Shown piece by piece: positions 15,854-26,894 of a stretch of DNA of 59,020 nucleotides. Where the stretch lies: the NCBI GenBank assembly GCA_035528895.1, contig DATKXS010000184.1:1-59020 (forward strand), in the 5' to 3' direction. The translations under genes were made by a program, and so were the position numbers. Source of the DNA: Candidatus Desulfaltia sp. (lineage in GTDB: Bacteria > Acidobacteriota > Aminicenantia > Aminicenantales > UBA8522). Numbering within the stretch: position 1 is the stretch's first letter; each line of letters starts with the position of its first letter. The notes under the pieces were generated by a model. It was not told the origin of the DNA. It was given only the letters and a program-made list of their open reading frames with translations, and made no database searches.

Positions 15854-16402
15854 TCAGTCTTTCCGTCCGGACGACCGGCCGAAGGCAAAGAGGTCTCCCG
15901 CCCGGAAGATATCCCGCTGGACAGCGCTCATCGGCTCCAGCGAAAAGGCCTGTTTCTTGCTCAGGTTATGCCCTCGGCCGTTCAGGAAATCGACCTCGAC
16001 CTCATCGCCCGTCTCCATCTTCCGTCCAGCTACGAGTGAATCGAGCTCGACACACCTCAGGATGGGAAGCCCGGAATTGACGGCGTTCCGGAAATAGATC
16101 GATGAATAGGAAGGAGCCAGGATGACGCCGACCTTCAGGGCGGTGAAACAGTCCACGGCCTGCTGGCGTGAGGAGCCGGCACCGAAGTTCCTTCCGGCGA
16201 CGACGATGTCTCCGGGATTGGCCTTTTTTGGGAAATCCTTCCAACCTTCAAGGTTTCCCAGGGCATATTGCCCCATCTCGGCGATTTCGGTGATGTGCAG
16301 GAAGGGGTTGTGGAAGATCTGGTCGGTATCGATGTCTTCAATCAGCCTTCCGGACCCATCGGCGAGAACCCAGACGCGGCCGCGGTGAGTTGATTTATCC
16401 AT
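15854..16402 (-). CDS. leuD: LeuD/HacB-type dehydratase small subunit, copy 1 (divergent)
   Basis: DIDTDQI, GDIVVAGRNFGAGSSRQQA and IYFRNAVNSGLP. Start MDKSTH at 16402. Confidence 0.85.
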   Translation of the reverse strand: MDKSTHRGRVWVLADGSGRLIEDIDTDQIFHNPFLHITEIAEMGQYALGNLEGWKDFPKKANPGDIVVAGRNFGAGSSRQQAVDCFTALKVGVILAPSYSSIYFRNAVNSGLPILRCVELDSLVAGRKMETGDEVEVDFLNGRGHNLSKKQAFSLEPMSAVQRDIFRAGDLFAFGRSSGRKD

Positions 16403-16403
16403 G

Positions 16404-17654
16404 TCACAGATCCTCCAGTCCGGCGATGTGCCCCAGGACACAGGAAGCGGCCACGACGGCGGGGCCGGCCAGGTAGGTCCGGCCCTTCCCCTGCTTTCCG
16501 GGAAAGTTGCGGTTCCCCGTGCTGATCTGGACCTCTCCCCGGCCCGTCAGTCCGACGTGGCCCTCGGCGCAGCCGCCGCAGCCGGGATTGACGACGATGG
16601 CGCCGGCCTCGAACAGGTCCTGCAGAATCCCCTTGGCCAGGAGCTCCTTGTAGACGCGGCGGGTCGCCGGGACGATCTTGAGCATGATGCCTTTCCTGAC
16701 GCCGCGGCCTTTTAGGATATGGGCCGCGACGGCGAAATCCTCGACCCGGCCGTTGGTGCAGGAGCCGATAAACCCCGAGTCGATCTTCGTCCCGCCAAGC
16801 TCGGTCACGGTCTTAACGTTGGCCGGAGAGGGCGGCGCCGCCACCTGAGGAGGAAGTCCCTGGAGGTCGATCTCGATCGTCTCGGCATAACCGGCATCCT
16901 TGTCTGCCACCAAGGGAGAGAAAGGAACTCCGGAGAACGCTTCGCTCTCTTCCCTGGCCGCCGGGCTGCATTCCGGGATGAATCCGATGATCCCGGCCAT
17001 CTCCGTCACCATGCTGCAAAGCGTCAGGCGGCCGGCCAGCGAAAGTCCGGCGACCGCGGGCCCGTAGAATTCGGCCGAGCAAAGGGCGATCTTCTTTGTC
17101 CCCAGCTCTTTCAATAGATACAACGTCAGATCTTTCGCCGAAGTCGGCGGTTTGAACGTTCCTTTCAGCACGACCTTGACGCTCTCCGGCACCTCGAACC
17201 ACGTCCGGCCGGTGCGGAAGGCGAAGGTGATGTCAACATCGCCCATTCCCTGGCCGAAGGTGCCGAGCGCACCCAAGATGTTCATGTGGCTGTCCGTGCC
17301 GACGACCGTACCGTTGGTTCGAGCCAACCCTTCCTCCATCAGGACATGGGTGCCGATGCCGCTATCCACGTCGTAAACCTCCACTCCGTACTTCCGGGCG
17401 AAGTCGCGGCAAACCTGTTGATTATCCGCATATTTGAGGGTGCAGGCCGGGGCGCAGAGGTCGAAGGTGAAGAACGTCTTGGCCTTGTCCGCGAGGGGGA
17501 GCCCCGCATATTCCCGCTCGTAGTTTTTGACAACATTAGGGCCCCCGAAATCCCGGGCCGAGCGGATGTCCAGGTCCATCCAGACGATCTTCCCCGGCGC
17601 GACCTCGTCGGCCGTGTGGGCCTGGATGATCTTTTCGATGACCGTTTTTCCCAT
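16404..17654 (-). CDS. leuC: LeuC/HacA-type aconitase-family dehydratase large subunit, copy 1 (divergent)
   Basis: GTDSH, GSCTNGR, PGCGGC and STGNRNFPGKQG. The three Fe-S cysteines are present. Confidence 0.88.
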   Translation of the reverse strand: MGKTVIEKIIQAHTADEVAPGKIVWMDLDIRSARDFGGPNVVKNYEREYAGLPLADKAKTFFTFDLCAPACTLKYADNQQVCRDFARKYGVEVYDVDSGIGTHVLMEEGLARTNGTVVGTDSHMNILGALGTFGQGMGDVDITFAFRTGRTWFEVPESVKVVLKGTFKPPTSAKDLTLYLLKELGTKKIALCSAEFYGPAVAGLSLAGRLTLCSMVTEMAGIIGFIPECSPAAREESEAFSGVPFSPLVADKDAGYAETIEIDLQGLPPQVAAPPSPANVKTVTELGGTKIDSGFIGSCTNGRVEDFAVAAHILKGRGVRKGIMLKIVPATRRVYKELLAKGILQDLFEAGAIVVNPGCGGCAEGHVGLTGRGEVQISTGNRNFPGKQGKGRTYLAGPAVVAASCVLGHIAGLEDL

Positions 17655-17668
17655 CCGCGGTGCTCCTG

Positions 17669-18784
17669 TCAGAGTCTGTCCGCCACGGCCCGGGCAACGT
17701 CGAGAGTCGTCGAAGTCCCGCCCATGTCATAGGTGCGGACCTTCCCCTCCTTGATGACCGCGGCGATGGCCTCTTCCAGGCGCCTTCCCTTTTCGGCCTC
17801 GCCCAGCCACTCGAGCATCATCTTGGCGGCCAGGAAAGTGGCCAGGGGGTTGACCTTGTACATCCCGGCGTACTTGGGCGCGGAGCCGTGGGTCGGCTCG
17901 AAGACGGCATACTTATCGCCGATGTTCCCGGCCGAGGCGAACCCCAGCCCGCCGACGAGCTGGGCGCTGAGGTCGGAGATGATATCGCCGAAGAGGTTCT
18001 CGGCGACCAAGACGTCGTAATCATGCGGGTTCTTGACCAGCCACATGCACATGGCATCCACGTTGGCTTCCTTGAGGGGGATCCCGGGGTATTCCTTGGC
18101 AACGGCCCGGGCGATGTCCAGCATCAGCCCGCCCGTCTCCCGGAGCACATTGGGCTTCTCGACGATGGTGACCGAGCGGCGCTTGAACTCGCGGGCGTAT
18201 TCGAAGGCCGCCCGGACGATCCGGGTGCAGCCTTTTTTGGTCATGATCCGGGTGGATATGGCGATCTCGTCGAGAGGAGTCTCCTTGAAGGCCTTCATCT
18301 TGGGATGGACGAGCAGCGCGTCCCGGACCGCCTGGGGCAACGGATGGAACTCCACCCCGGCGTACATGCCCTCGGTGTTCTCCCTGAAGATCACCAGGTC
18401 AATATTGTCCCGGTAGTTCAGCGGGTTCCCGGGAAAGGCTTTGCAGGGCCGGCGGTTGGTGTAGAGGTCGAACTCCTGGCGGAGCCTGACGATCGGGCTG
18501 AAATAGGAAAGTCCTTTGCCCTTGAGCGAGGGATCGAGCTCGGCGGCGGCGTCCTCCTTCGGCTTCGAGGTGATGGCGCCGAAGAGGCAGACGTCGGTCT
18601 CCTTGAGCATCTTGATGGTGCGGTCGGGAAGAGCGTTTCCCTCCTTACACCAGAATTCCCAGCCGATGTCAGCGTAGACATATTCTGCGTCCACGGCCAG
18701 CTTGTTGAGGACCATCATGGCCGCTTCGATGACGTCCCCTCCCACACCGTCTCCGGGCAACACGGCGATCTTGTACTTAGCCAT
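17669..18784 (-). CDS. Isocitrate/homoisocitrate/isopropylmalate dehydrogenase family protein
   Basis: IAVLPGDGVG, RENTEGMY, NLFGDIISD and EPTHGSAPKYAG. Confidence 0.92.
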   Translation of the reverse strand: MAKYKIAVLPGDGVGGDVIEAAMMVLNKLAVDAEYVYADIGWEFWCKEGNALPDRTIKMLKETDVCLFGAITSKPKEDAAAELDPSLKGKGLSYFSPIVRLRQEFDLYTNRRPCKAFPGNPLNYRDNIDLVIFRENTEGMYAGVEFHPLPQAVRDALLVHPKMKAFKETPLDEIAISTRIMTKKGCTRIVRAAFEYAREFKRRSVTIVEKPNVLRETGGLMLDIARAVAKEYPGIPLKEANVDAMCMWLVKNPHDYDVLVAENLFGDIISDLSAQLVGGLGFASAGNIGDKYAVFEPTHGSAPKYAGMYKVNPLATFLAAKMMLEWLGEAEKGRRLEEAIAAVIKEGKVRTYDMGGTSTTLDVARAVADRL

Positions 18785-18840
18785 ATTCAGCTCCTTTCAT
18801 GGGCAGCAAAAATGTAGCATATTTACCCGAAAAGAGGAAG

Positions 18841-18974
18841 AAAAATGGGGACGGGCCAAAGAAATGGGGGCCAGCCAAAAAAATGGAGACGGGTCATTTT
18901 TTTTAATATCCCTCTCCCTTGATGGGAGAGGGTGGAGGGAGAGGGTGAAAAAAAATAGAACCGTCCCCATTTTT
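18841..18974. repeat. Composite REP-like palindrome
   Basis: Perfect 14-bp IR AAAAATGGGGACGG / CCGTCCCCATTTTT. It encloses tandem degenerate copies and the hairpin CCCTCTCCC-ttgat-GGGAGAGGG at 18910-18932. Confidence 0.75.
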
Positions 18975-19033
18975 CTCATCTTTACACCGGGCAAAGATTT
19001 CCATACAATGACCGCACGCACAGGAGGTCGCAG

Positions 19034-20287
19034 ATGAAAAAACGAAAATTGGGCGTCGGCATCATCGGCGGAGGTTTCGTCGCCGGGTTTCATATCCGTT
19101 CCTGGGTCGGCGTCCGCGATGCGGATATTTTGGGGATCTATGACCCCGACAGGAAAAGGGCCGAAGAGGCGGTCGGCATCGCCCGGAAGCTCGAGGTGGG
19201 TGACGCCAAGTCCTACAAGTCGATCACCGATATGATCGCTGATCCCAGGATCGACGCCATCTGGATCTGCGCCCCGAACTTCACCCGGCTGGAAGTCACT
19301 GAAGAGATCGTCCACGCTTTAGAGAAAGGGAAAGGGGACCTGACCGGCGTCTGCTGCGAGAAGCCGCTCGGCCGGAACGTCAAGGAGGCGCGCCGGATGT
19401 TGGAGCTTGTCAGGAAAGCGAAGCTTCTCGACGGCTACCTGGAAAACCAGGTCTTCGCGCCGGCTGTCGTGCGGGGCAAAGGCATCATCTGGGCCCGTGG
19501 GGCGACTCTATCAGGGCGTCCGTATCTCGCCCGGGCGGCCGAGGAGCACAGCGGACCGCACATGCCCTGGTTCTGGGAAGGCTCCCTCCAGGGTGGCGGT
19601 GTGCTTAACGACATGATGTGTCATTCCGTCGAAGTGGCCCGCTTCCTGCTGACCCCGCCCGGGGCGCCGCGGGGCGTGCTGACACCCGTTAAAGTCAACG
19701 CCTACGCCTCCTGCCTGAAATGGCAGAACCCGGAATACGCCAAGGTCCTCCGCGATCAGAGCGGCGGCAAGACCGATTATCTCAAGCGGCCGGCCGAGGA
19801 CTTCGCCCGCTCCCTCATCGAATACAGGGACGAGAAGGGAAACGTGGTCGTCGTCGAGACGACGACCTCTTGGTGCTATGTCGGTGCCGGATTGCGTCTG
19901 AGCATGGAGCTCCTCGGGCCCGAATACGCCCTCCAGATCAACACCCTCGACGCCGGGCTCAAGGTCTTCTTCAGCCGGAAGGTCAAGGGGAAGGCCGGGG
20001 AGGACCTGGTGGAGAAACAGAACGCCGAGGTCGGCCTCATGCCCGTGGTGGCCGATGAGGAAAACGAGTACGGCTACCAGGCGGAGGACCGGCACATGGT
20101 CCAGTCTTTCCTCAAGGGCGCGCGTCCGAACGAGAATTTCGACGACGGCCTCAACGTGACCGAGCTTCTGATGGCCGCCTACATGAGCGCCGAGCGGGAT
20201 AAGACCCTGGCCTTCCCACCGCCGGGGTTGGCGAACTTCATTCCGGCCGTCGCGCAGGGAACCTGGAACCCGAAGAGCAGCAGATAA
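19034..20287 (+). CDS. Gfo/Idh/MocA family oxidoreductase
   Basis: GVGIIGGGFVAGFH Rossmann motif, CEKPLG and GGGVLNDMMCH. Confidence 0.9.
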   Translation: MKKRKLGVGIIGGGFVAGFHIRSWVGVRDADILGIYDPDRKRAEEAVGIARKLEVGDAKSYKSITDMIADPRIDAIWICAPNFTRLEVTEEIVHALEKGKGDLTGVCCEKPLGRNVKEARRMLELVRKAKLLDGYLENQVFAPAVVRGKGIIWARGATLSGRPYLARAAEEHSGPHMPWFWEGSLQGGGVLNDMMCHSVEVARFLLTPPGAPRGVLTPVKVNAYASCLKWQNPEYAKVLRDQSGGKTDYLKRPAEDFARSLIEYRDEKGNVVVVETTTSWCYVGAGLRLSMELLGPEYALQINTLDAGLKVFFSRKVKGKAGEDLVEKQNAEVGLMPVVADEENEYGYQAEDRHMVQSFLKGARPNENFDDGLNVTELLMAAYMSAERDKTLAFPPPGLANFIPAVAQGTWNPKSSR

Positions 20288-20358
20288 GGAATCTGGAGCC
20301 GGGGCGCGGTCAAGAAAACGACGATCCAGGGCTTGACCTAAGAGCTGCGGCGATTCTC

Positions 20359-20556
20359 TCAAGAAGACTTTGGAACACTGTTCACCACTCTGGCGATTTT
20401 AAGGTCTATTTCCAATCCGGATAGGACGTTTTTAGGGGGGAGCACCCCCAGCAGGATCGCCTCGTTATACATGGCCTCGACAAGGCGGAAATTCTCCAAA
20501 ATATCGACCTTTTCTGATCGAATGATCTCCAGTTCAAATTTTTGAGTCGTCCTCAT
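20359..20556 (-). CDS. Small hypothetical protein, putative antitoxin-like partner of a nucleotidyltransferase
   Basis: MRTTQKFELEIIRSEKVDILENFRLVEAMYNEA..GLEIDLKIARVVN. The AT-richer segment overlaps a truncated second ORF (GTG at 20378). The family assignment is from memory only. Confidence 0.5.
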   Translation of the reverse strand: MRTTQKFELEIIRSEKVDILENFRLVEAMYNEAILLGVLPPKNVLSGLEIDLKIARVVNSVPKSS

Positions 20557-20639
20557 ATGTATATATATGCATGTTTTATGCATTTATATCAAGGCCAGAA
20601 AAAATGGCTCTTCATGGCTCTGCTGCCACCCCGCAGGCC

Positions 20640-20750
20640 AAAGATCCCCCTCCTCCCCACCTCCTCCCACCAGGGGAGGAGGGTTTGGGGTGGACAGTTT
20701 GTTCCTTCCCCCTTTGTTCTTTCACTTTTGTTCCTTCCCTTTAGACTTTG
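20640..20750. repeat. REP-like hairpin plus short direct repeats
   Basis: CCTCCTCCC-accag-GGGAGGAGG hairpin and two copies of TTTGTTCCTTCCC. Confidence 0.5.
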
Positions 20751-20821
20751 AGAGGAAGAGAGGTGGGGGAATCTCCTAAGTAACAACGCCAATAAAAGAC
20801 GACGGAAAAACAATATGATTC

Positions 20822-21316
20822 TCAGCGGCCGGAGGCCAGCTTCTTTTTCGTATGCTCGATTAGGCCGCCGGCCTCGATGATGCCGATGACCGACTCGGGA
20901 AGCGGGAAGAATTTGAAGACGCGGCCGCCCGAGATGATCTTCCCTCCCGCGAAGTCAATTTCGACCTCGTCGCCCGTCTTCAGCGCATCCGACGCCTCCT
21001 CGCACTGGAGAACGGCTAACCCCAAATTAATAGCATTTCGAAAATAGATCCGCGCAAACGACTTGGCGACTACAGCCTGGACTCCCGCCGCCCTCAGGCA
21101 CGCCGCCGCCTGCTCCCGCGAGCTCCCGCAGCCGAAATTCTTTCCTCCCACGACCACATCGCCGGGCTTGACGTTCCTAGCGAAATCGGGATCGAGGTCT
21201 TCCATGGCGTGCTTGGCCATTTCGGCCGGCTCCATGATCTTGTAGGTGTACCGCCCCGGAAAAATGACGTCGGTGTTGACATCGTCCCCGTACTTCCAAA
21301 CGCGTCCTTTGCTCAT
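20822..21316 (-). CDS. leuD: LeuD/HacB-type dehydratase small subunit, copy 2
   Basis: [33 protein letters not shown] and [14 protein letters not shown]. Confidence 0.93.
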
Positions 21317-22566
21317 CGGTGTTTCCTCGGGTCAGTGATCTTGCCTTCGAGCGCGGAGGCGGCAGCTGTAGCCGGAGAAGCCAGGTAGATCTCGGAGTCT
21401 CGGTTTCCCATCCGGCCCCGGAAATTCCGGTTCGAAGTGCTGACCACGACCTCGCCCGCCGCCAGCAGGCCCTCGTGGGCGCCGAGGCAGGGCCCGCATC
21501 CGGGGTTGAGAATGACGCATCCCGCTTCGGATAAGATTTCGAGCAGGCCTTTCCGCATAGCTTCAACATAAACTTCCCGCGATGCGGGGAGCACGAGCGC
21601 CCGGACGCCCGGATGGACCTTTTTCCCTTTCAGGATCCCGGCCGCGACCTCGAAGTCCTCCAGGCGGCCGTTCGTGCACGTCCCGATGAGTGCCTGGTGG
21701 AAGGGCTTGCCCTCGACTTCGCGAACGGGCTTGACGTTGTCCACGGTATGAGGGCAGGCGACCTGCGGCTCGAGCACAGACAGGTCATATTTCAGAATCG
21801 CCTCGTACTTGGCATCTTTATCTGACCGGACAACCTCGTAATCGGCCCGGGCCCGCGCCTTCACCCACTCGAGCGTCTTCTCGTCCGGCTCGAAATAGCC
21901 GTTTTTGGCCCCCATCTCGGCGGCCATGTTGGCCAGGACCATGCGCGAGGCCAGGCTGAAATCCCCGGCCGCCAGACCGGCGAATTCGACGGCCTCGTAG
22001 TTCGCCCGGTCGGCGCCGTTATCGCCGATGACCTTGAGGATGACGTCCTTGGCATAAACGCCGGCCGGTAGCTTCCCGGAAAACTCGATCCGCAGCGTTT
22101 CCGGCACGCGCAGCCAGATTTCGTCTGTTGCCCAAATCGAGGCCGCTTCGGTCCGGCCGATCCCGGCCGCGAACGCCCCGAAAGCCCCGTAGGTCGTGGT
22201 ATGGGAATCGCTCCCGACGATGAGCTTTCCGGGAAGGGCGAAGCTCGCCTCGCTCAGGACCTGGTGGCAGACGCCGTGCTGGATGTCGAAGAAATTGGGC
22301 AGGCCCTGGACAGCCACGAACTCGCGGATGGTCTTGTGGTTCTGGGCGTACTTCTCGTCGGCCGCCGGGACGATGTGGTCGAGGATGATGACCAGCTTCC
22401 CGGGCGCCTTGACACGCTCCACGCCCAGTTTCTTGAACTCGCCGATGATGGCGGCCGAGTTGTCGTGGGAAAGGCAGTAGTCGGGAGCGACGGTCACGAC
22501 CTCGCCGGCGCTGACCTCTTTGCCGGCCTTCTTGCCGAGGATCTTTTCCGAGAATGTCTTGCCCAC
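21313..22566 (-). CDS. leuC: LeuC/HacA-type aconitase-family dehydratase large subunit, copy 2
   Basis: LSHDN, LDHIVP, GSDSHT, GTCTNGR, PGCGPCLG and NRNFRGRMG. GTG start with an AGGAGG RBS. Confidence 0.93.
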   Translation of the reverse strand: MGKTFSEKILGKKAGKEVSAGEVVTVAPDYCLSHDNSAAIIGEFKKLGVERVKAPGKLVIILDHIVPAADEKYAQNHKTIREFVAVQGLPNFFDIQHGVCHQVLSEASFALPGKLIVGSDSHTTTYGAFGAFAAGIGRTEAASIWATDEIWLRVPETLRIEFSGKLPAGVYAKDVILKVIGDNGADRANYEAVEFAGLAAGDFSLASRMVLANMAAEMGAKNGYFEPDEKTLEWVKARARADYEVVRSDKDAKYEAILKYDLSVLEPQVACPHTVDNVKPVREVEGKPFHQALIGTCTNGRLEDFEVAAGILKGKKVHPGVRALVLPASREVYVEAMRKGLLEILSEAGCVILNPGCGPCLGAHEGLLAAGEVVVSTSNRNFRGRMGNRDSEIYLASPATAAASALEGKITDPRKHR

Positions 22567-22595
22567 TCTTCCCCTCCTTAACCTTTCCCTACTCA

Positions 22596-22895
22596 GGAGA
22601 ATGAGGATTTGGGCAAGTTAGCCCATTTGTTTTTCCAAGGGTGAGGGATGTATGGTGAGAAGTCCGTATGAGCGACGAGCGGGTACTCCTTATTGCGGCA
22701 AGGCGAGAGGCAGTGGCATGAGAAACCCGTATGAGGAGTGAGCGGGCACGATTTCTCGATCGCAGGGAGAGAAGAGCGAACGACGAATCGAGCCCGTTTT
22801 CCGCGCTGGGAGAAAACGGGCGCGGTTTCGATGCCACTATCTCGAGCCTTCCGCTCAGTCTTTGACGGGCTGACTTAACCAAATCCTCATTCTCC
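22596..22895. mobile_element. MITE (non-autonomous insertion element), 300 bp
   Basis: 28-bp terminal IRs, perfect for the first 17 bp: GGAGAATGAGGATTTGG..AAGT.AGCC / GGCT.ACTT..CCAAATCCTCATTCTCC. No transposase inside. It lies between two co-oriented genes. Confidence 0.8.
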
Positions 22896-22896
22896 C

Positions 22897-23430
22897 TTAA
22901 CCCTTGAGCACATCGAAGTTGACGAAGTCGGCGTGGTTGACGATGATGGCCTCGACCGTCCGGCGCGACCCATCCCCTTCTTTGGAATGGGCGGCGATGA
23001 TGTGGACGACCTCCTGGGGAAGGCCGTGGGCGAAAGCAAATGCCGCCCCGGAGATGGGATGGCGCAGCAGCTCTCCTTCCCGGCTCTTGACGAACTCCCC
23101 CTTCTCCCGCTTGTATTCGAAGAGCTTGCCGACGTCATGAAGGATGGCTCCGGAAAGAAGATGATCGCGGTGGATGGCGATCTTGCCCGGGTACTCCGCC
23201 AGCAGGACCTCGGCGATCTTCAGGGCCGCCAGGGTGACGGCCCGGGTGTGGGTGATGAGGTTGACATCGGTGTGCTTGATCAAGAGCGTGAAGGGCATCT
23301 CGGCTAAATCCTTAATCCCCCAGCCGGCCCGCTCCATCGCCTCCACCCAAACCTTGATGGTCTTCTCCCGAAGCTCCGCGTCCTTGATAAGCTGGAGCTC
23401 GGGCAGCAGCGCCTCCAATTGCTTTCTCAT
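22897..23430 (-). CDS. HD-domain (HDIG-like) metal-dependent phosphohydrolase
   Basis: THTRAV, AILHDVGKLFEY, HPISGA, IIAAH and HADF. ATGA-coupled to the citryl-CoA lyase gene. Confidence 0.88.
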   Translation of the reverse strand: MRKQLEALLPELQLIKDAELREKTIKVWVEAMERAGWGIKDLAEMPFTLLIKHTDVNLITHTRAVTLAALKIAEVLLAEYPGKIAIHRDHLLSGAILHDVGKLFEYKREKGEFVKSREGELLRHPISGAAFAFAHGLPQEVVHIIAAHSKEGDGSRRTVEAIIVNHADFVNFDVLKG

Positions 23431-24206
23431 GGGATCTCTCTTTCTCCCGGCCCGTCGTACTCATGGTCGGACGGGTGGATCTTGCGCATGGGCTTCATCC
23501 TGGTCTTCTCTTCCTGGATGTGGGCGACGAGTCCCGGCACCCGGGATATGATGAAGAAGGCGTTGCCGATCTCGGCCGGGATGCCGAGATCGCAGAGCAG
23601 GGCAGCTATGGCGCCGTCCACGTTGATCGGCAGCGGCTTGCCGCTCTCCCTGAATATCTTTTCGACGATCCGGGCGATGCGGACGTAGCGGCCGGCCAGT
23701 TTCAGCTCTTCCGCCATGGCGAAGAGCTTCTCTGTTCGGGGGTCCTGGGTGTGGACGCGGTGGCCGAACCCGGAAGCGCGCTCGCCCCTCGTTCTCATCT
23801 CGGCCAGGATCTCCTGGGCCGCTTCTTCTACCGTGATCTTCATCTCTTCCGTCCGCTTGGAGATGGCCTGGAAGAGCTTCATCCCCTCCTCGATGGCCCC
23901 GCCGTGGAGGCGGGAGATGGCCAGCACCCCGGCCGCGATGGCGGCATGGAGCTCGGCCCCGGTCGAGGCGACGGTGCGGGCAGCAAGGACCGACGGCGGA
24001 CCGGCGCCGTGGTCGACCGAGGAAACGAAGACAGCGTCGAGGAGCTTCCCGACCTCGGGCGAAGGCAACTCGCCCTTGAGGACAAGGTAGATCGCCTGAG
24101 AAAAGGTGATCTTTCCCATCAGCTGGTCGATGGGATAGCCGCGCAGCTGGACCTTATTCGGCTGGACGCTGGTGATTCCGGTTTTCCAATGAAGATCTTC
24201 GGCCAT
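23427..24206 (-). CDS. ccl: Citryl-CoA lyase (citrate-synthase-fold, Ccl-like)
   Basis: WKTGIT..LRGYPIDQL, SVDHGAGPPS, LHGGAIE, GFGHRVHTQDPR, INVDGA and SRVPGLVAH. About 260 aa, the small-domain type. Confidence 0.85.
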   Translation of the reverse strand: MAEDLHWKTGITSVQPNKVQLRGYPIDQLMGKITFSQAIYLVLKGELPSPEVGKLLDAVFVSSVDHGAGPPSVLAARTVASTGAELHAAIAAGVLAISRLHGGAIEEGMKLFQAISKRTEEMKITVEEAAQEILAEMRTRGERASGFGHRVHTQDPRTEKLFAMAEELKLAGRYVRIARIVEKIFRESGKPLPINVDGAIAALLCDLGIPAEIGNAFFIISRVPGLVAHIQEEKTRMKPMRKIHPSDHEYDGPGEREIP

Positions 24207-24216
24207 TGTCTTTCCC

Positions 24217-25125
24217 TCACTGACTCTGGATCGATCCGGCAAGCTCCTTGGCCTTGACGGGAATATCGGAGATCGCCTCGACGACGTGCGCGCCGACCTC
24301 GCGCAGCCTCCTCACCTTGGTTTCGTGGGAGCCGCGCGAGCCTTCGACGATGGCCCCGGCATGGGAGAAGCGCGTCCCCGACTTGGCCGCTTTGCCGCCG
24401 ATGTAGGCGATGAGGGGTTTGGTGAACCGGCCGCTTTCGATCAGGTCGGCCACCCGCTCCTCCTGGGACGTCCCGATCTCCCCGAACATCACGGCCATCT
24501 TCGTCTCCGGGTCCTCCTCGAAGAGCACCATGATCTCGGGATGGGAGAGGCCGATGACGGCGTCTCCGCCGACATGGACGATGGTGCTCTGGCCCAGGCC
24601 GGCCTGGGTGAGATAATAGGAGATGGCCGAGGTCATGCCGCCGCTCCGGGAGCTGACGCCCACAAACCCGGGCCTGAACCATTCCTTGGCCCGCTCGGCG
24701 CGTCCGCCGATCATCCCCAGGACCGCTTTGCCCGGGCTGACCAGGCCGAGGGTGTTGGGGCCGACGAAACGCGCGCCTTTCTCGGCGGCCCGGGCGGCGA
24801 TCTCCAGGACGTCATGGATGGGCACGCGGTCGGGGACGATGACGAGAAGCTTCACTCCCGCGTCGATGGCCTCGAGAGCGGCTCCCCTGACCAGGGCGGC
24901 GGGGACGAAGATGACGCTGACGTCCATCGACCCCTGTTTCTCCCAGGCCTGGAGCACGGAATCATAGACCGGGATGCCGTAAACATCCTGGCCGCCGCGG
25001 CCGGGCGTCACTCCGGCGATGACTTTCGTCCCGTAATCCTTCATCAACTGCGCCCGGACCATGCCCTCCCGGCCGGTGATGCCCTGGATGATGACCCGCG
25101 ACTTCTCATTCACCAAGATGGCCAT
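24217..25125 (-). CDS. sucD: Succinyl-/citryl-CoA synthetase alpha-type (SucD/CcsB-like) subunit
   Basis: IQGITGREG, GVTPGRGG, GPNTLG, SRSGGMT, GEIGTSQEE and the phospho-His motif RFSHAGAI. Confidence 0.85.
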   Translation of the reverse strand: MAILVNEKSRVIIQGITGREGMVRAQLMKDYGTKVIAGVTPGRGGQDVYGIPVYDSVLQAWEKQGSMDVSVIFVPAALVRGAALEAIDAGVKLLVIVPDRVPIHDVLEIAARAAEKGARFVGPNTLGLVSPGKAVLGMIGGRAERAKEWFRPGFVGVSSRSGGMTSAISYYLTQAGLGQSTIVHVGGDAVIGLSHPEIMVLFEEDPETKMAVMFGEIGTSQEERVADLIESGRFTKPLIAYIGGKAAKSGTRFSHAGAIVEGSRGSHETKVRRLREVGAHVVEAISDIPVKAKELAGSIQSQ

Positions 25126-25190
25126 GATATTTGATCTCTTTGCTCTCCGTTATTCATTGTTCTTATTCTTATTATGTTCTATGTGAGTTA

Positions 25191-26756
25191 TCAGGTTTCC
25201 CTTTTGACGGCGATGATCTTGTCTCTATACTCTTTGAGTCCGGGGATGGGAAGACGGATGACGATCGCGTCCTGTTCGTGGAACTTGCAGAAAATTTCGC
25301 AGGCCAGACATTCAGTGCACTTGCCTTTCTTGGCCTCCTCCGGAGAGACGGCTAAAACCGGCTTCCCGTCCTCGATCTTCAAGATCTTGGGAAGGCAGGC
25401 CGGGACGCAGCCCTTGGTCCGGCAATCCGCGCATTTGACATGGTCGAAGGAGATGCGGCCGGTGACCGTCTCGAAGACATAGGCTTTCTCGGGAACCGCG
25501 GGTTCGACGATCGGCCGCACTTCATGGCGCCCGTCCGGATTCTTCGCTACCAGCTCTTCGAGCCGGCGGGCGCAGAATTCGGGCGTATCGTCACGACCGT
25601 ACCCCTCGACGACACCCGGGATTTCCTTCAAATAAGTCTGCAGGATCCAGATCGCCCTTTCTTCGAAATTCCCGCCCAGCCGGATGACCGCGGGGATGGC
25701 CAGTCGCTCCTCCTGGAAGGCCTTGACCAGGCCGCGCGCCGAATGGAACTGCTCCTGGCTGGCGACCCCCGATCCCGAGGCGAAATAGCCCCTGATCCCG
25801 GGCTGGGAGAGGATGATCTTGGCGGCCCGGTAGACCTTGCTGGCCGGAGGGTTGCCGCTCGTGTCGCAAAAATTGGCCAGCTTGAACCCGCGGTTTAGGA
25901 CCGCGTCCATCGACATCATCGACCCGCCGCCACCGGCGCCATGGAAGCCGATGTATTTCTCGTTAGCGGCCGTTTGTTCGACCATCTGGAAGAAGTAGAA
26001 GGTCCCGCGGTAGTCTTTTTCCTCGACCCGGTAGGCGATCTTCTCCAGCTCGGTCGGCGGCCGGTCGAACTCCCGCGCCACCTCGATCCCGAACTCGGGA
26101 TGGCGGTAAACAGCATAGTCATCGATGATAAGGTGACAGTCGGCGGCGAACAGATTTCCCTCTGCCGTGAGGACAAGAGGGTTGATCTCGGCCGAGCGGG
26201 CGTCACTCGAGCGGGCGATTTTATAGAGCTTGGTCAGGAGATCGGACAGCTTCGGCAGGAGCGCGCCCTCGATCCCCACCCGGAGGAGCATGTTCCGCGC
26301 GTCGTACTCAGGAAATCCCTTGAGGACGTCGATAGTCTGGCGGGCGACTTTTTCCGGATGGAGGCGGGCGATCTCCTCCACGCCGGTGCCTCCGACCGGG
26401 CTGAAGATGAGAAGCGGCCGTTTGGAAGCGTCATCGATGACCACCCCGGTGAAATACTCGGCCTGGATGTCCAATTTTTCTTCCACCAGGATCCGGTCGA
26501 CGACGAAATTCTTGACCTTCATCCCCAGGAGCCCGCGGGCCTTGGTTTCCACCTCCTCGGGTGTGGCGGCAAACTGGATCCCGCCGACCCCCGCCCGTCC
26601 GGTCACCCAGACCTGGATCTTGAGGACAACCGGCCGGCCGATCGTCTCGGCGATGCCGCGGGCTTCCTCGGGGGTGGAAGCCACACCTCCCGCCGGGACA
26701 GGAATGCCCCCTTGCTTCAGCAGCTTCTTGCCCTGGTACTCGAACAGTCTGGCCAT
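25191..26756 (-). CDS. sucC: Succinyl-/citryl-CoA synthetase beta-type (SucC/CcsA-like) ATP-grasp subunit fused to a C-terminal 2x[4Fe-4S] ferredoxin-like domain
   Basis: LFEYQGKKLL, GRAGVGGI, EINPL, GAGGGGSMMSMD and DTSGNPP. C-terminal CADCRTKGCVPAC and CTECLACEIFC. Confidence 0.85.
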   Translation of the reverse strand: MARLFEYQGKKLLKQGGIPVPAGGVASTPEEARGIAETIGRPVVLKIQVWVTGRAGVGGIQFAATPEEVETKARGLLGMKVKNFVVDRILVEEKLDIQAEYFTGVVIDDASKRPLLIFSPVGGTGVEEIARLHPEKVARQTIDVLKGFPEYDARNMLLRVGIEGALLPKLSDLLTKLYKIARSSDARSAEINPLVLTAEGNLFAADCHLIIDDYAVYRHPEFGIEVAREFDRPPTELEKIAYRVEEKDYRGTFYFFQMVEQTAANEKYIGFHGAGGGGSMMSMDAVLNRGFKLANFCDTSGNPPASKVYRAAKIILSQPGIRGYFASGSGVASQEQFHSARGLVKAFQEERLAIPAVIRLGGNFEERAIWILQTYLKEIPGVVEGYGRDDTPEFCARRLEELVAKNPDGRHEVRPIVEPAVPEKAYVFETVTGRISFDHVKCADCRTKGCVPACLPKILKIEDGKPVLAVSPEEAKKGKCTECLACEIFCKFHEQDAIVIRLPIPGLKEYRDKIIAVKRET

Positions 26757-26894
26757 CGTCCTATCCTGAAGGCTAATATTATTGAAGCTGGCGCGGATAA
26801 AGTCAACGGGGACGCGTCATGATCGCAACGTCTTGATTGACCGGCCTTTTACGGAAACGAGATCATTTTCTGCCGAGAGGAAAAAGCAAGGCCT

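What the first reader, a model, noticed from the sequence alone, without database searches (positions are those of the whole stretch)
15854..26756. Candidate undescribed tricarboxylate module: ferredoxin-fused CoA ligase + citryl-CoA lyase + HD protein + two LeuCD pairs + dehydrogenase
Seen: nine co-oriented minus-strand metabolic genes, several coupled by overlaps (ccl/HD, leuC2/leuD2), with no leuA or lysine-pathway genes nearby. Established: two-step ATP-dependent citrate cleavage by citryl-CoA synthetase (CcsA/B) plus Ccl is known from Aquificae rTCA, and LeuCD/HacAB with LeuB/HICDH act on hydroxy-acid series. Inference: this is a self-contained route between acetyl-CoA + a 2-oxoacid and the next 2-oxoacid. 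That could be citrate<->2-oxoglutarate using LeuCD-type enzymes as aconitase, or a homocitrate or other tricarboxylate. Run in the condensing direction it would yield ATP and replace a citrate/homocitrate synthase.
Basis: partly seen in the sequence, partly recalled or inferred. Interest (0 to 1): 0.85.

Follow-up and report, generated by a model that had tools for sequence, protein, structure and literature searches.

The report
Ferredoxin-tagged citryl-CoA ligase/lyase metabolic module
A gene set conserved across many uncultured anaerobic bacteria most likely links acetyl-CoA plus oxaloacetate to 2-oxoglutarate through citrate with ATP coupling, using an undescribed iron-sulfur-bearing relative of citryl-CoA synthetase and leucine-type enzymes that public records mislabel.

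Summary
In this genome a plus-strand Gfo/Idh/MocA gene splits them into two blocks. In relatives they are contiguous.

The same families travel together in Aminicenantes, WOR-3, Hydrothermota, Anaerolineae/Chloroflexota, Neomarinimicrobiota and Calditrichaeota, sometimes in a different order.

The genome has no LeuA/NifV-type synthase and no IlvC, and it has LysA. So the LeuCD and LeuB-like genes do not serve leucine synthesis, and lysine can come from the DAP route.

The lyase keeps the active-site residues it shares with Hydrogenobacter citryl-CoA lyase. The ligase lies outside both the canonical SucC clade and the CcsA clade, and its eight ferredoxin cysteines are conserved.

Where the His-less second LeuCD pair is absent, a PrpD/MmgE-family gene fills its slot. 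This points to a two-step isomerisation.

Best reading (about 0.5): a reversible, ATP-coupled citrate to 2-oxoglutarate module, a new variant of the CCS/CCL system. Substrate (citrate or homocitrate) and direction are not settled. I found no paper describing it.

The parts
25191..26756 (-). Large (beta-type) subunit of an ADP-forming acid-CoA ligase, 521 aa. It has an ATP-grasp domain, a CoA-ligase domain with CcsA/ACL-like motifs (RPPTELE..DYRG, GGGGS, SGNPPASKVY), a linker, and a C-terminal domain like a 2x[4Fe-4S] ferredoxin (about 25191-25460).
   Evidence: Pfam ATP-grasp_2 177 bits and a weak Citrate_bind match. NCBIfam sucC models score 250 bits, below the 370-375 cut-offs. Cysteine motifs are visible. 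All 8 Cys are kept in 79-81 of 81 orthologues. Fer4_9 scores 21.4 bits, below the gathering score of 27. In the tree it lies outside the SucC clade (100*) and the CcsA clade (98*). The C-domain alone matches CcsA best (61.7 bits, against 51.9 for Thermus SucC).
24217..25125 (-). Small (alpha-type, SucD/CcsB-like) ligase subunit, 302 aa, with the phosphohistidine motif SHAGA.
   Evidence: Pfam CoA_binding plus Ligase_CoA. NCBIfam sucD models score 290 bits, below the 336-353 cut-offs. It lies beside the fused ligase gene in 75 of 82 loci.
23427..24242 (-). Citryl-CoA lyase (truncated citrate-synthase fold), 271 aa as called. Relatives are 257-259 aa, so the true start may be a little downstream.
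   Evidence: NCBIfam NF004869 citryl-CoA lyase, 282 bits against a 212 cut-off. It scores 204.6 bits to H. thermophilus Ccl, PDB 6HXP, and is 43% identical to it. E. coli GltA residues H229, H264, H305, R314, D362, F383 and R387 are invariant in 63 of 63 orthologues and in Ht Ccl.
22897..23430 (-). Stand-alone HD-domain protein, 177 aa. Its start overlaps the ccl stop by 4 bases. It is a core partner of the ligase/lyase trio.
   Evidence: Pfam HD 47 bits. It lies next to ccl in 60 of 82 loci, including WOR-3, where the LeuCD and dehydrogenase genes are elsewhere. The AlphaFold2 model has pLDDT 91.5, and no solved structure is close (best TM 0.57). The His of the HD motif is replaced by A or C exactly in the lineages that use a PrpD-like gene.
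21313..22566 (-). Aconitase-family large subunit with canonical catalytic motifs (SHDN, LDH, CHQ, DSH, three Cys, NRNFRGR).
   Evidence: NCBIfam NF001614, 570 bits. It scores 435 bits to MJ0499 and 376 to MJ1003. It forms its own clade (99*), sister (87) to the LeuC of GltA/Icd and NifV-type operons and apart from leu-operon LeuC.
20822..21316 (-). Aconitase-family small subunit partnered with 21313-22566. Its specificity loop is G(K/R)YTY, of the long class.
   Evidence: TIGR02087, 202 bits. The loop is conserved across phyla and differs both from the GltA-operon type RYFHLR and from the leu-operon type ARYLNV.
17669..18784 (-). NADP-type beta-decarboxylating dehydrogenase (Iso_dh family), 371 aa.
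   Evidence: Pfam Iso_dh 291 bits. No NCBIfam equivalog cut-off is reached. R119, R129, R153, Y160, K230, D283, D307 and D311, plus the NADP determinants K344, Y345 and Y391 of E. coli Icd, are invariant in 37 of 37 orthologues. The loop SPIVRLRQ keeps S113 but has I for N115. It forms its own clade (99*).
16404..17654 (-). Divergent aconitase-family large subunit, 416 aa. The Fe-S cysteines and DSH are kept, but the Asp-His dyad reads FDL, SHDN reads ARDF, CHQ reads GTH and NRNFRGR reads NRNFPGK.
   Evidence: Pairwise alignment. The substitutions are conserved in 30 orthologues from Aminicenantes and Anaerolineae. It forms its own long-branch clade (100*).
15854..16441 (-). Divergent aconitase-family small subunit, 195 aa as called. 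It keeps GSSR and has the loop HN(A/P)(F/Y)LHIT.
   Evidence: TIGR02087, 112.6 bits.
26778..26806 (-). Promoter-like site (TTGACT-17-AATAAT, 10 of 12 matches), 22 bases upstream of the ligase start codon.
   Evidence: Consensus scan only. This is not evidence of function.

Best explanation
The genes encode a reversible, ATP-coupled module at the citrate node. It is a variant of the two-step citryl-CoA synthetase/lyase system extended with its own isomerases and dehydrogenase.

Proposed steps:
1. Acetyl-CoA + oxaloacetate <-> citryl-CoA, by Ccl. The active-site match to the characterised Hydrogenobacter enzyme is shown. The activity is inferred.
2. Citryl-CoA + ADP + Pi <-> citrate + CoA + ATP, by the SucC-ferredoxin/SucD ligase through a phosphohistidine. 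This is inferred from family, motifs and constant adjacency to ccl.
3. Citrate <-> cis-aconitate. This is assigned to the His-less LeuCD pair, or in other lineages to the PrpD/MmgE-family protein that occupies the same operon slot. The assignment is an inference from non-orthologous replacement, and from the NCBIfam name for E. coli-type PrpD, 'bifunctional 2-methylcitrate dehydratase/aconitate hydratase'.
4. cis-Aconitate <-> isocitrate, by the canonical LeuCD pair (inferred).
5. Isocitrate + NADP+ <-> 2-oxoglutarate + CO2 + NADPH, by the dehydrogenase. The catalytic and NADP residues are shown. The substrate is inferred.

Accessory parts:
- The HD protein is a fixed accessory of the ligase/lyase trio with unknown chemistry.
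- The fused ferredoxin-like domain has no redox step to serve. It is most likely a structural or redox/oxygen-sensing element that could prevent a futile cycle with citrate synthase.

Direction is not fixed by the sequence:
- In this Aminicenantes genome, which also has GltA, AcnB and Icd, the module probably runs reductively or under anoxia, from 2-oxoglutarate (for example from glutamate-family amino acids) to acetyl-CoA + oxaloacetate.
- In Chloroflexota that lack citrate synthase, it may be the ATP-conserving route to citrate and 2-oxoglutarate.
For: 1. Synteny across phyla, including a different gene order in Anaerolineae. At the level of all-against-all clustering, only these families recur.
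2. The module is independent of leucine synthesis, and lysine has its own route. There is no PF00682 and no IlvC, and LysA is present in this genome. PF00682 is absent or negligible in 10 of 19 other module-bearing genomes, including a complete chromosome.
3. Ccl passes the NCBIfam citryl-CoA lyase cut-off. It keeps seven of eight citrate-synthase catalytic/oxaloacetate residues in 63 of 63 orthologues, and at the eighth it has the same residue as H. thermophilus Ccl.
4. The ligase alpha subunit keeps the phosphohistidine motif. The beta C-domain is most like CcsA and shares ACL/CCS motifs.
5. The module's LeuC clade is sister to the LeuC found in GltA-LeuC-LeuD-Icd operons and lies apart from leu-operon LeuC.
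6. A PrpD-like gene follows the dehydrogenase in every variant that lacks the divergent LeuCD.
7. The dehydrogenase keeps all catalytic residues and the E. coli Icd NADP signature.
8. In genome G006, the module's Ccl, LeuC and dehydrogenase are the only members of their three families.
9. The CCS and CCL reactions lie near equilibrium, at -5.9 and -2.1 kJ/mol (table in PMC13147460).
Against: 1. The dehydrogenase lacks the Asn115 that all checked isocitrate dehydrogenases use for the gamma-carboxylate. It sits on the HICDH/LeuB side of a 97* split.
2. The canonical LeuD loop (GKYTY) lacks the Arg/His of the putative aconitase-type LeuD (RYFHLR). The pair scores higher against the M. jannaschii isopropylmalate/citramalate isomerase than against its homoaconitase.
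3. The ligase is not inside the H. thermophilus CcsA clade. It is also the only SucCD-like enzyme in this genome, so succinate cannot be excluded as a substrate.
4. Most module-bearing genomes already have a citrate synthase, aconitase and Icd, so the function is redundant unless direction or conditions differ.
5. About two thirds of sampled Aminicenantia lack the module.
6. No enzyme of this clade has been assayed.
Confidence: 0.5

Rival explanations
1. Homocitrate module. The lyase and ligase make or split homocitryl-CoA (acetyl-CoA + 2-oxoglutarate). The two dehydratases divide homocitrate -> cis-homoaconitate -> homoisocitrate, as in fungi and Thermus. The dehydrogenase then yields 2-oxoadipate.
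For: - A split isomerisation is typical of the alpha-aminoadipate route (established knowledge).
- The N-terminal half of the dehydrogenase is closest to Thermus HICDH, and its top NCBIfam hit is AksF2.
- The dehydrogenase lacks Asn115 and lies on the HICDH/LeuB side of the tree.
- The divergent LeuD has His at the HacB Arg26 position.
- Two earlier agents' notes favoured this reading. Those notes are unchecked leads.
Against: - All oxaloacetate-site residues of Ccl are identical to those of the characterised citryl-CoA lyase. No citrate-synthase-fold enzyme is known to take 2-oxoglutarate.
- The Thermus Arg85 equivalent is Val.
- S. pombe HICDH scores only 30.6 bits on the loop segment.
- The cofactor motif is NADP/Icd-type, not the NAD type of HICDH.
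- Lysine can be made by the DAP route here, since LysA is present.
- No LysX/LysW-type or aminotransferase partner recurs beside the module.
- HacA/HacB equivalog cut-offs are not reached.
Confidence: 0.13
2. Another substituted hydroxy-acid series. Examples are 2-methylcitrate (propionyl-CoA + oxaloacetate) or an alkyl/aryl-malate, so that the module is a CoA-ligase-coupled 2-oxoacid elongation or shortening cycle.
For: - PrpD-family partners and the dehydratase/hydratase split recall the methylcitrate cycle.
- The LeuCD pair is most similar to the IPM/citramalate isomerase.
- The dehydrogenase loop IVRLRQ resembles Sulfolobus IPMDH VVKLRQ.
- A paralogous set in genome G005 pairs a SucCD-like ligase and a small ferredoxin-like ORF with an HMG-CoA-lyase-family protein and a LeuCD.
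- E1alpha/beta-type 2-oxoacid dehydrogenase genes adjoin the module in two phyla.
Against: - 2-Methylisocitrate is a tertiary alcohol that a dehydrogenase cannot oxidise (chemistry).
- There is no IlvC or LeuA, so the products would have no biosynthetic use here.
- The PrpD-like proteins score only 64-98 bits to PrpD equivalogs.
- The dehydrogenase keeps Ser113 rather than the acidic residue of IPMDHs.
- The oxaloacetate site of Ccl is intact.
Confidence: 0.1
3. Nothing special. This would be an ordinary succinyl-CoA synthetase next to ordinary leucine-pathway genes (LeuBCD), with the adjacency inherited by descent only.
For: - Public names call the ligase succinyl-CoA synthetase beta subunit.
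- It is the only SucCD homologue in this genome.
- Its best PDB match is Thermus SCS-beta, at 249.6 bits.
Against: - The SucC, SucD, LeuB, LeuC and Icd equivalog cut-offs are all missed.
- The ligase lies outside the canonical SucC clade.
- The genome has no LeuA and no IlvC.
- The same gene set recurs in distant phyla with rearranged order.
- A citryl-CoA lyase is always adjacent.
Confidence: 0.03

Closest known systems
Citryl-CoA synthetase CcsA/CcsB plus citryl-CoA lyase Ccl of Hydrogenobacter thermophilus (PDB 6HXQ, 6HXP; Aoshima et al. 2004, as cited in PMC13147460)
   Same: - Three separate polypeptides: a SucC-like subunit, a SucD-like subunit and a truncated citrate-synthase fold.
- Ccl is 43% identical, with the same active-site residues.
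- The phosphohistidine motif is present.
- The large subunit shares the motifs PPTE..(D/Y)(H/Y)RG, GGGGS and GNPPA.K.Y.
   Different: - The large subunit is not in the CcsA clade.
- It carries a conserved eight-Cys ferredoxin-like domain.
- It always has an HD-protein partner.
- It travels with its own LeuCD-type hydratases and an NADP dehydrogenase.
- Hosts are mostly uncultured anaerobic heterotrophs, not Aquificae autotrophs.
ATP-citrate lyase (Chlorobium AclBA, human ACLY), including its reverse, ATP-yielding use reported for Desulfobacter postgatei (Moller et al. 1987; cited from my own knowledge, not checked here)
   Same: The overall chemistry is the same: citrate + ATP + CoA <-> acetyl-CoA + oxaloacetate + ADP + Pi, near equilibrium. 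There is a weak Pfam Citrate_bind match.
   Different: The lyase is not fused to the alpha subunit. AclB scores only 92 bits. ACL has no Fe-S domain and no HD partner.
PrpD + AcnB (methylcitrate cycle), and aconitase + homoaconitase (fungal and Thermus alpha-aminoadipate pathway): isomerisations split between two enzymes
   Same: A dehydratase (the His-less LeuCD or a PrpD-family protein) and a separate aconitase-family hydratase are encoded together.
   Different: The PrpD-like proteins are far from PrpD equivalogs. The substrate is probably citrate, for which one aconitase normally suffices. The division of labour is inferred, not shown.
Archaeal-type LeuCD/HacAB of Methanocaldococcus jannaschii (MJ0499/MJ1277, MJ1003/MJ1271)
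   Same: The same two-subunit architecture, Fe-S ligands and catalytic Ser. The canonical pair scores 435 and 176 bits to MJ0499 and MJ1277.
   Different: The specificity loop GKYTY matches neither YLVY (isopropylmalate) nor YLRT (homoaconitate). It forms its own clade next to GltA-operon LeuC. There is no cognate LeuA/AksA-type synthase.
NADP-isocitrate dehydrogenase (E. coli Icd) and Thermus homoisocitrate dehydrogenase
   Same: All catalytic residues are present, along with the Icd-type NADP determinants K344, Y345 and Y391. The N-terminal half is closest to Thermus HICDH.
   Different: N115 is replaced by I, and the Thermus R85 equivalent is V. There is an Arg at position 117 and two insertions. 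It forms a separate clade.

Membership tests
Citryl-CoA lyase (CCL; truncated citrate-synthase family) | Curated family score | tested here: met
   NF004869 scores 282.4 bits against a cut-off of 212.
Citryl-CoA lyase (CCL; truncated citrate-synthase family) | Catalytic His/His/Asp and oxaloacetate-binding Arg residues of citrate synthase, as in H. thermophilus Ccl | tested here: met
   H229, H264, H305, R314, D362, F383 and R387 (E. coli numbering) are invariant in 63 of 63 orthologues. Position 407 is P, as in Ht Ccl.
Citryl-CoA lyase (CCL; truncated citrate-synthase family) | Cleaves (3S)-citryl-CoA to acetyl-CoA + oxaloacetate | not testable with these tools
   This needs an enzyme assay.
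Citryl-CoA synthetase (CcsA/CcsB) | SucC-like plus SucD-like subunits with a phosphohistidine in the small subunit | tested here: met
   The SHAGA motif is.
Citryl-CoA synthetase (CcsA/CcsB) | Large subunit groups with characterised CcsA in a tree | tested here: not met
   H. thermophilus CcsA lies in a 98* clade that excludes the window protein.
Citryl-CoA synthetase (CcsA/CcsB) | Citrate-side (C-terminal) domain resembles CcsA/ACL rather than SucC | tested here: inconclusive
   The C-domain's best PDB hit is CcsA at 61.7 bits, against Thermus SucC at 51.9. Motifs are shared with CcsA/ACL. The margin is small.
Succinyl-CoA synthetase (SucCD) | Curated equivalog scores and placement in the canonical clade | tested here: not met
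   SucC scores 248-250 bits against cut-offs of 370-375. SucD scores 289-291 against 336-353. The protein lies outside the E. coli + Thermus clade (100*).
ATP-citrate lyase | Alpha subunit fused to the CCL/citrate-synthase module | tested here: not met
   SucD-like and Ccl are separate ORFs. AclB scores 92 bits.
2x[4Fe-4S] ferredoxin domain | Two CxxCxxCxxxC-type motifs, conserved | tested here: met
   The motifs are CADCRTKGCVPAC and CTECLACEIFC. All eight Cys are kept in 79-81 of 81 orthologues. The first motif has a 4-residue second spacer.
2x[4Fe-4S] ferredoxin domain | Pfam gathering score for a Fer4 family | tested here: not met
   The best match is Fer4_9 at 21.4 bits, against a gathering score of 27. 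Cluster binding needs spectroscopy.
Isopropylmalate isomerase of leucine synthesis (LeuCD) | Works with LeuA and the Ilv enzymes, and groups with leu-operon LeuC | tested here: not met
   The genome has no PF00682 and no IlvC. The module's LeuC clade is separate from leu-operon LeuC. Equivalog cut-offs are missed.
Homoaconitase (HacAB) | Equivalog score and the small-subunit YLRT loop with Arg26 | tested here: not met
   HacA scores 469 against a cut-off of 550, and HacB 162-175 against 230. The loops are GRYTYK and NPFLHI.
Aconitase-type function in a two-subunit LeuCD scaffold | Relatedness to the LeuCD encoded in GltA-LeuC-LeuD-Icd operons | tested here: inconclusive
   The two clades are sisters with SH-aLRT 87. 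However, the small-subunit loop differs: GKYTY against RYFHLR.
NADP-isocitrate dehydrogenase | Catalytic residues and NADP determinants | tested here: met
   R119, R129, R153, Y160, K230, D283, D307, D311, K344, Y345 and Y391 are invariant in 37 of 37 orthologues.
NADP-isocitrate dehydrogenase | Ser113-x-Asn115 gamma-carboxylate motif, and curated score or clade | tested here: not met
   The segment reads S-P-I: Ser is kept, and Asn is replaced by Ile. No IDH equivalog cut-off is reached. The protein lies outside the Icd clade.
Homoisocitrate dehydrogenase | Thermus Arg85 equivalent, NAD-type motif, curated score | tested here: not met
   The position holds Val. The motif is the NADP-type KY. 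AksF2 scores 343.6 against a cut-off of 540.
HD-domain metal-dependent phosphohydrolase | Pfam HD match and the H..HD..H..H..D ligands | tested here: met
   PF01966 scores 47.4 bits. The ligands are present in this window. The HD-motif His is lost in the PrpD-type lineages. The substrate is unknown.

The most novel reading that the evidence does not exclude
The thioester may be carried through the whole pathway. Ccl would make citryl-CoA. The aconitase-family pairs (or the PrpD-like protein) and the dehydrogenase would then act on CoA-bound intermediates: citryl-CoA -> aconityl-CoA -> isocitryl-CoA -> 2-oxoglutaryl-CoA. The SucC-like ligase would harvest the bond as ATP only at the end.

This would explain several oddities:
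- The LeuD loop lacks the carboxylate-binding Arg.
- The dehydrogenase lacks Asn115, but has a hydrophobic I-V pair, a new Arg and two insertions.
- The ligase's ATP-grasp half is SucC-like, and the ligase is not in the CcsA clade.

No aconitase-family or isocitrate-dehydrogenase-family enzyme acting on a CoA ester is known to me.
Probability: 0.04. Interest if true: 0.9.

Novelty: new variant of a known kind. Interest (0 to 1): 0.66.

Why it matters
The fused ligase is encoded in at least 534 species-level genomes. They span Aminicenantes, Chloroflexota, WOR-3, Calditrichaeota, Neomarinimicrobiota and other phyla.

Public records call its parts succinyl-CoA synthetase or ATP-grasp protein. 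Generic family names would also label the partner genes as isopropylmalate isomerase/dehydrogenase. Automated metabolic reconstructions of these abundant sediment and subsurface bacteria can therefore go wrong in three ways:
- they can invent a succinyl-CoA synthetase and leucine synthesis;
- they can miss a citrate-node enzyme;
- if annotated as CCS/CCL, they can wrongly infer CO2 fixation.

If the module is an ATP-conserving citrate synthase, or a citrate-cleaving route for glutamate-family amino acids, it changes the energy budget assumed for energy-limited anaerobes. It would also add an Fe-S-bearing branch to the SCS/CCS/ACL superfamily, which bears on how ATP-citrate lyase and citrate synthase evolved.

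The alternation between the His-less LeuCD pair and the PrpD-like protein offers a testable case of a two-enzyme aconitase.

Tried and rejected
- **Leucine or lysine biosynthesis.** Leucine is rejected: the genome has no HMGL-like synthase and no IlvC. Lysine is unlikely: LysA shows a DAP route.
- **'The genome lacks gltA/acnB/icd'.** Rejected. All three are present on contigs C163 and C50.
- **Minus-strand ORFs 18797-19315 and 19511-20362 as pathway genes.** Rejected. They match no family and overlap a real plus-strand Gfo/Idh/MocA gene.
- **Fungal-HICDH-like loop.** Not supported.
- **Complementary distribution of Ccl and citrate synthase in Anaerolineae.** The signal is weak. About 23 of 201 genomes have only a Ccl-type hit, but 49 have no citrate-synthase-family gene at all, and the match list was truncated.
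- **Fold search for the HD protein.** It returned only generic HD folds.
- **Literature searches.** I combined citryl-CoA with Aminicenantes, Anaerolineae, Calditrichaeota, Marinimicrobia, WOR-3, ferredoxin domain and substrate-level phosphorylation, and homocitrate with PrpD. None returned a description of this module.
- **First related-loci run with a 17-sequence alignment.** It failed for lack of conserved blocks. I repeated it with 8 sequences.

Full report
**What is in the window.** ORF listing and family scans confirm nine minus-strand genes:
- a 521-aa SucC-like protein, 25191-26756
- a SucD-like protein, 24217-25125
- a citryl-CoA lyase, 23427-24242
- an HD-domain protein, 22897-23430
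- a canonical aconitase-family pair, LeuC 21313-22566 and LeuD 20822-21316
- an Iso_dh-family dehydrogenase, 17669-18784
- a divergent aconitase-family pair, 16404-17654 and 15854-16441

TsaB and RimI follow. The last ~85 residues of the SucC-like protein carry CADCRTKGCVPAC and CTECLACEIFC. The ccl/HD and leuC/leuD 4-base overlaps are real.

A plus-strand Gfo/Idh/MocA gene (19034-20287) and about 0.5 kb of spacer cut the set in two in this genome. A promoter-like site lies just upstream of the ligase gene.

**Whose genome, and how common.** Homologues of the fused ligase at 70-93% identity are labelled Aminicenantes or Aminicenantales. A scan of one genome per species found at least 534 species encoding a relative. 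The best 80 include Aminicenantes, Hydrothermota, WOR-3, Anaerolineae and other Chloroflexota, Neomarinimicrobiota, Calditrichaeota and a Syntrophobacteraceae genome, all at 58% identity or more. Within the window's own class, 46 of 151 sampled genomes (26 of 58 genera) carry it, always once. One large family lacks it. Public names are 'succinyl-CoA synthetase beta subunit', 'ATP-grasp domain-containing protein' or 'acetate--CoA ligase family protein'.

**Synteny.** I ran tblastn of the window's proteins against 82 loci. Three layouts appear:
- Aminicenantes: ligase-beta(Fd), ligase-alpha, Ccl, HD, LeuC, LeuD, dehydrogenase, divergent LeuC, divergent LeuD, then TsaB and RimI, contiguous. L013 and L029, a complete chromosome, are examples.
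- Three Anaerolineae: the same nine families in another order (..HD, divergent LeuCD, LeuCD, dehydrogenase).
- WOR-3: the first four genes at one locus and LeuD-dehydrogenase-divergent LeuCD at another.

An all-against-all clustering of flanking ORFs found no other family recurring outside Aminicenantes. TsaB, RimI and the upstream sigma/anti-sigma genes are only lineage-level synteny.

**A second architecture.** Some lineages lack the divergent LeuCD: Neomarinimicrobiota L081, Chloroflexota L088/L090/L096 and Caldithrix L085. In each of them a PrpD/MmgE-family gene follows the dehydrogenase. These proteins are remote from PrpD equivalogs, at 64-98 bits.

The divergent LeuC has conserved replacements of catalytic residues. 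Asp-His becomes FD(L/Y), SHDN becomes (A/V)RDF, CHQ becomes G(S/T/Q)H, and NRNFRGR becomes NRNFxGK. The three cluster cysteines, DSH and the small-subunit GSSR are kept. It forms its own 100* clade.

Two unrelated dehydratase families alternate in one operon slot. This is the strongest clue that the pathway needs a separate dehydratase half-reaction beside the canonical LeuCD. PrpD + AcnB in the methylcitrate cycle, and aconitase + homoaconitase in the alpha-aminoadipate route, work the same way.

The HD protein co-varies with this choice. The His of its HD motif is kept with the divergent LeuCD and replaced by Ala or Cys with the PrpD-like gene.

**What the genome does and does not have.** The assembly is 93.5% complete.
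- It has no PF00682 (LeuA/CimA/NifV/Re-citrate synthase) match and no IlvC.
- It has LysA above cut-off. The LeuCD and LeuB-like genes therefore cannot serve leucine synthesis, and lysine has a DAP route.
- It does have a eukaryote-like GltA (685 bits), AcnB (1357 bits) and an NADP-IDH cut by a contig end.
- It has no other SucC or SucD homologue.

Among 19 other module-bearing genomes:
- Nine lack PF00682, and the complete Aminicenantes chromosome has only a 40-bit fragment.
- Five, mostly Chloroflexota, lack a full-length citrate synthase and AcnA/B.
- In G006 the module's Ccl, LeuC and dehydrogenase are the only members of their families.
- G004 and G013 carry GltA-LeuC-LeuD-Icd operons, with Icd 61-65% identical to E. 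coli Icd. Two-subunit LeuCD-type aconitases therefore exist in these lineages.

**Lyase.** The Ccl exceeds the NCBIfam citryl-CoA lyase cut-off. It scores 204.6 bits to H. thermophilus Ccl and is 43% identical to it. Like that enzyme, it keeps E. coli GltA residues H229, H264, H305, R314, D362, F383 and R387 in 63 of 63 orthologues (residue list from PMC13147460). This is the best single argument that the tricarboxylate is citrate.

**Ligase.**
- The alpha subunit has the phosphohistidine motif.
- The whole beta subunit matches Thermus SCS-beta best (249.6 bits, against CcsA at 142.5).
- Its C-terminal, acid-binding half matches CcsA best (61.7 against 51.9 bits). That half shares RPPTE..DYRG, GGGGS and GNPPA.K.Y with CcsA/ACL.
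- In a tree it lies outside both the canonical SucC clade (100*) and the CcsA clade (98*).
- All eight ferredoxin-type cysteines are conserved among close orthologues. More distant fused relatives have lost some.
- Pfam sees Fer4_9 only below threshold.

**Isomerase and dehydrogenase specificity: mixed signals.**

For the canonical LeuCD:
- It is most similar to the M. jannaschii isopropylmalate/citramalate isomerase.
- Its clade is sister (87) to the GltA/NifV-operon LeuC clade and apart from leu-operon LeuC.
- Its small-subunit loop G(K/R)YTY is conserved across phyla. It has the same length as the GltA-operon loop RYFHLR but lacks the basic residues.

For the dehydrogenase:
- It keeps every catalytic residue and the Icd-type NADP determinants.
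- Its substrate loop SPIVRLRQ retains Ser113, replaces Asn115 by Ile and adds Arg at 117.
- The loop resembles Sulfolobus IPMDH VVKLRQ.
- The protein forms its own clade on the HICDH/LeuB side of a 97* split.

These points keep homocitrate and other substrates alive as rivals.

**Accessory observations.**
- The HD protein gives a confident model (pLDDT 91.5) with no close solved relative.
- In Caldithrix and Neomarinimicrobiota, E1alpha/beta, E3 and lipoate ligase genes of a 2-oxoacid dehydrogenase complex adjoin the module. This fits a supply of acetyl-CoA, or use of the 2-oxoacid product.
- Genome G005 also holds a paralogous set: a SucC-like ligase, a separate small ferredoxin-like ORF, a SucD-like subunit and an HMG-CoA-lyase-family protein, near another LeuCD. 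'Ligase + acyl-CoA lyase + LeuCD' may be a more general design.

**Interpretation.** The most economical model is a reversible citrate-node module with five steps:
1. Ccl
2. an ADP-forming citryl-CoA ligase
3. a citrate-side dehydratase (divergent LeuCD or PrpD-like)
4. an isocitrate-side hydratase (canonical LeuCD)
5. an NADP-dependent dehydrogenase

The CCS and CCL reactions are near equilibrium, so direction will depend on physiology. This genome has a parallel GltA/AcnB/Icd set. Cleavage (2-oxoglutarate to acetyl-CoA + oxaloacetate, for example from glutamate-family amino acids) or anoxic use is therefore more plausible here. The Fe-S domain could act as a redox gate against a futile cycle with citrate synthase. 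Both points are inference. In Chloroflexota without citrate synthase, the ATP-yielding synthetic direction is plausible. I put this model at about 0.5, homocitrate at about 0.13, other substituted acids at about 0.1 and 'ordinary SCS plus leucine genes' at about 0.03.

**Relation to earlier notes of this scan.** Sister notes on this window correctly flagged the Fe-S motifs, the His-less LeuC, the NADP motif and the ccl/HD coupling. I checked each. Follow-up notes on other genomes describe the same family and split between citrate and homocitrate readings. I treated them as leads only. The PrpD/divergent-LeuCD alternation, the Ccl active-site census and the genome inventories reported here are my own tests.

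**Novelty.** I found no paper describing this module. One published Aminicenantes reconstruction simply draws 'scs' in its TCA cycle (PMC4897734). The module is best filed as a new variant of the known CCS/CCL kind of system. It is not a member of the CcsA clade.

**Limits.**
- Trees used the quick method with SH-aLRT support only, and several references were partial sequences rebuilt from PDB alignments.
- The genomes are MAGs, so absences are provisional.

Noticed in passing
window 19034-20287 (+) and 20358-20555 (-): A Gfo/Idh/MocA oxidoreductase gene on the opposite strand and a ~66-aa minus-strand ORF sit between leuD and the dehydrogenase, where relatives have about 150 bases or less. 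A Gfo homologue (85%) also lies a few kb downstream of leuD in L018. This looks like a lineage-specific insertion that split the operon.
   Followed up: partly
L107 (genome G005, contig C26, 694000-702000): A paralogous set in an Anaerolineae genome: a SucC-like ligase (424 aa, no fused domain), a separate 107-aa ferredoxin-like ORF, a SucD-like subunit and an HMG-CoA-lyase-family protein (363 bits against a 246 cut-off), close to another LeuC-LeuD pair. It may be a citramalyl-CoA-type counterpart of the module.
   Followed up: partly
L100 (G004) and L104 (G013): GltA-LeuC-LeuD-Icd operons, with Icd 61-65% identical to E. coli Icd. The only aconitase candidate in them is a two-subunit LeuCD-type enzyme with small-subunit loop RYFHLR. 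This looks like an unannotated two-subunit aconitase.
   Followed up: partly
L081 11524-12513, 15051-15407, 18622-19035: In the Neomarinimicrobiota locus, a DNA methylase gene, a DUF559 endonuclease-like gene and a PIN-domain gene are inserted between genes of the module without changing its order.
   Followed up: no
genome contig C38:32594-33802 (+): The LysA match (306 bits) spans one in-frame TGA within a 518-aa open frame. This could be a sequencing error, a pseudogene or recoding.
   Followed up: no
whole genome G000: No IlvC and no LeuA-family gene were found in a 93.5%-complete assembly. The organism is probably auxotrophic for branched-chain amino acids. It also has no canonical SucCD, although it has AcnB, Icd, GltA and a methylmalonyl-CoA mutase.
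   Followed up: partly
L106 (genome G005, contig C16, 11500-18500): Two tandem NifV-type homocitrate/Re-citrate-synthase-like genes (479 and 442 bits to TIGR02660) are followed by LeuC, LeuD (loop RYFHLR) and a 333-aa Iso_dh protein. In a genome without GltA, this is probably the Re-citrate synthase route to 2-oxoglutarate.
   Followed up: no
P0163 and P0219: These are distant fused relatives (28-32% identity) that keep the ferredoxin-like tail but lack the GGGGS and SGNPPASK motifs. They form a separate, long-branched clade (100*) of unknown function.
   Followed up: no
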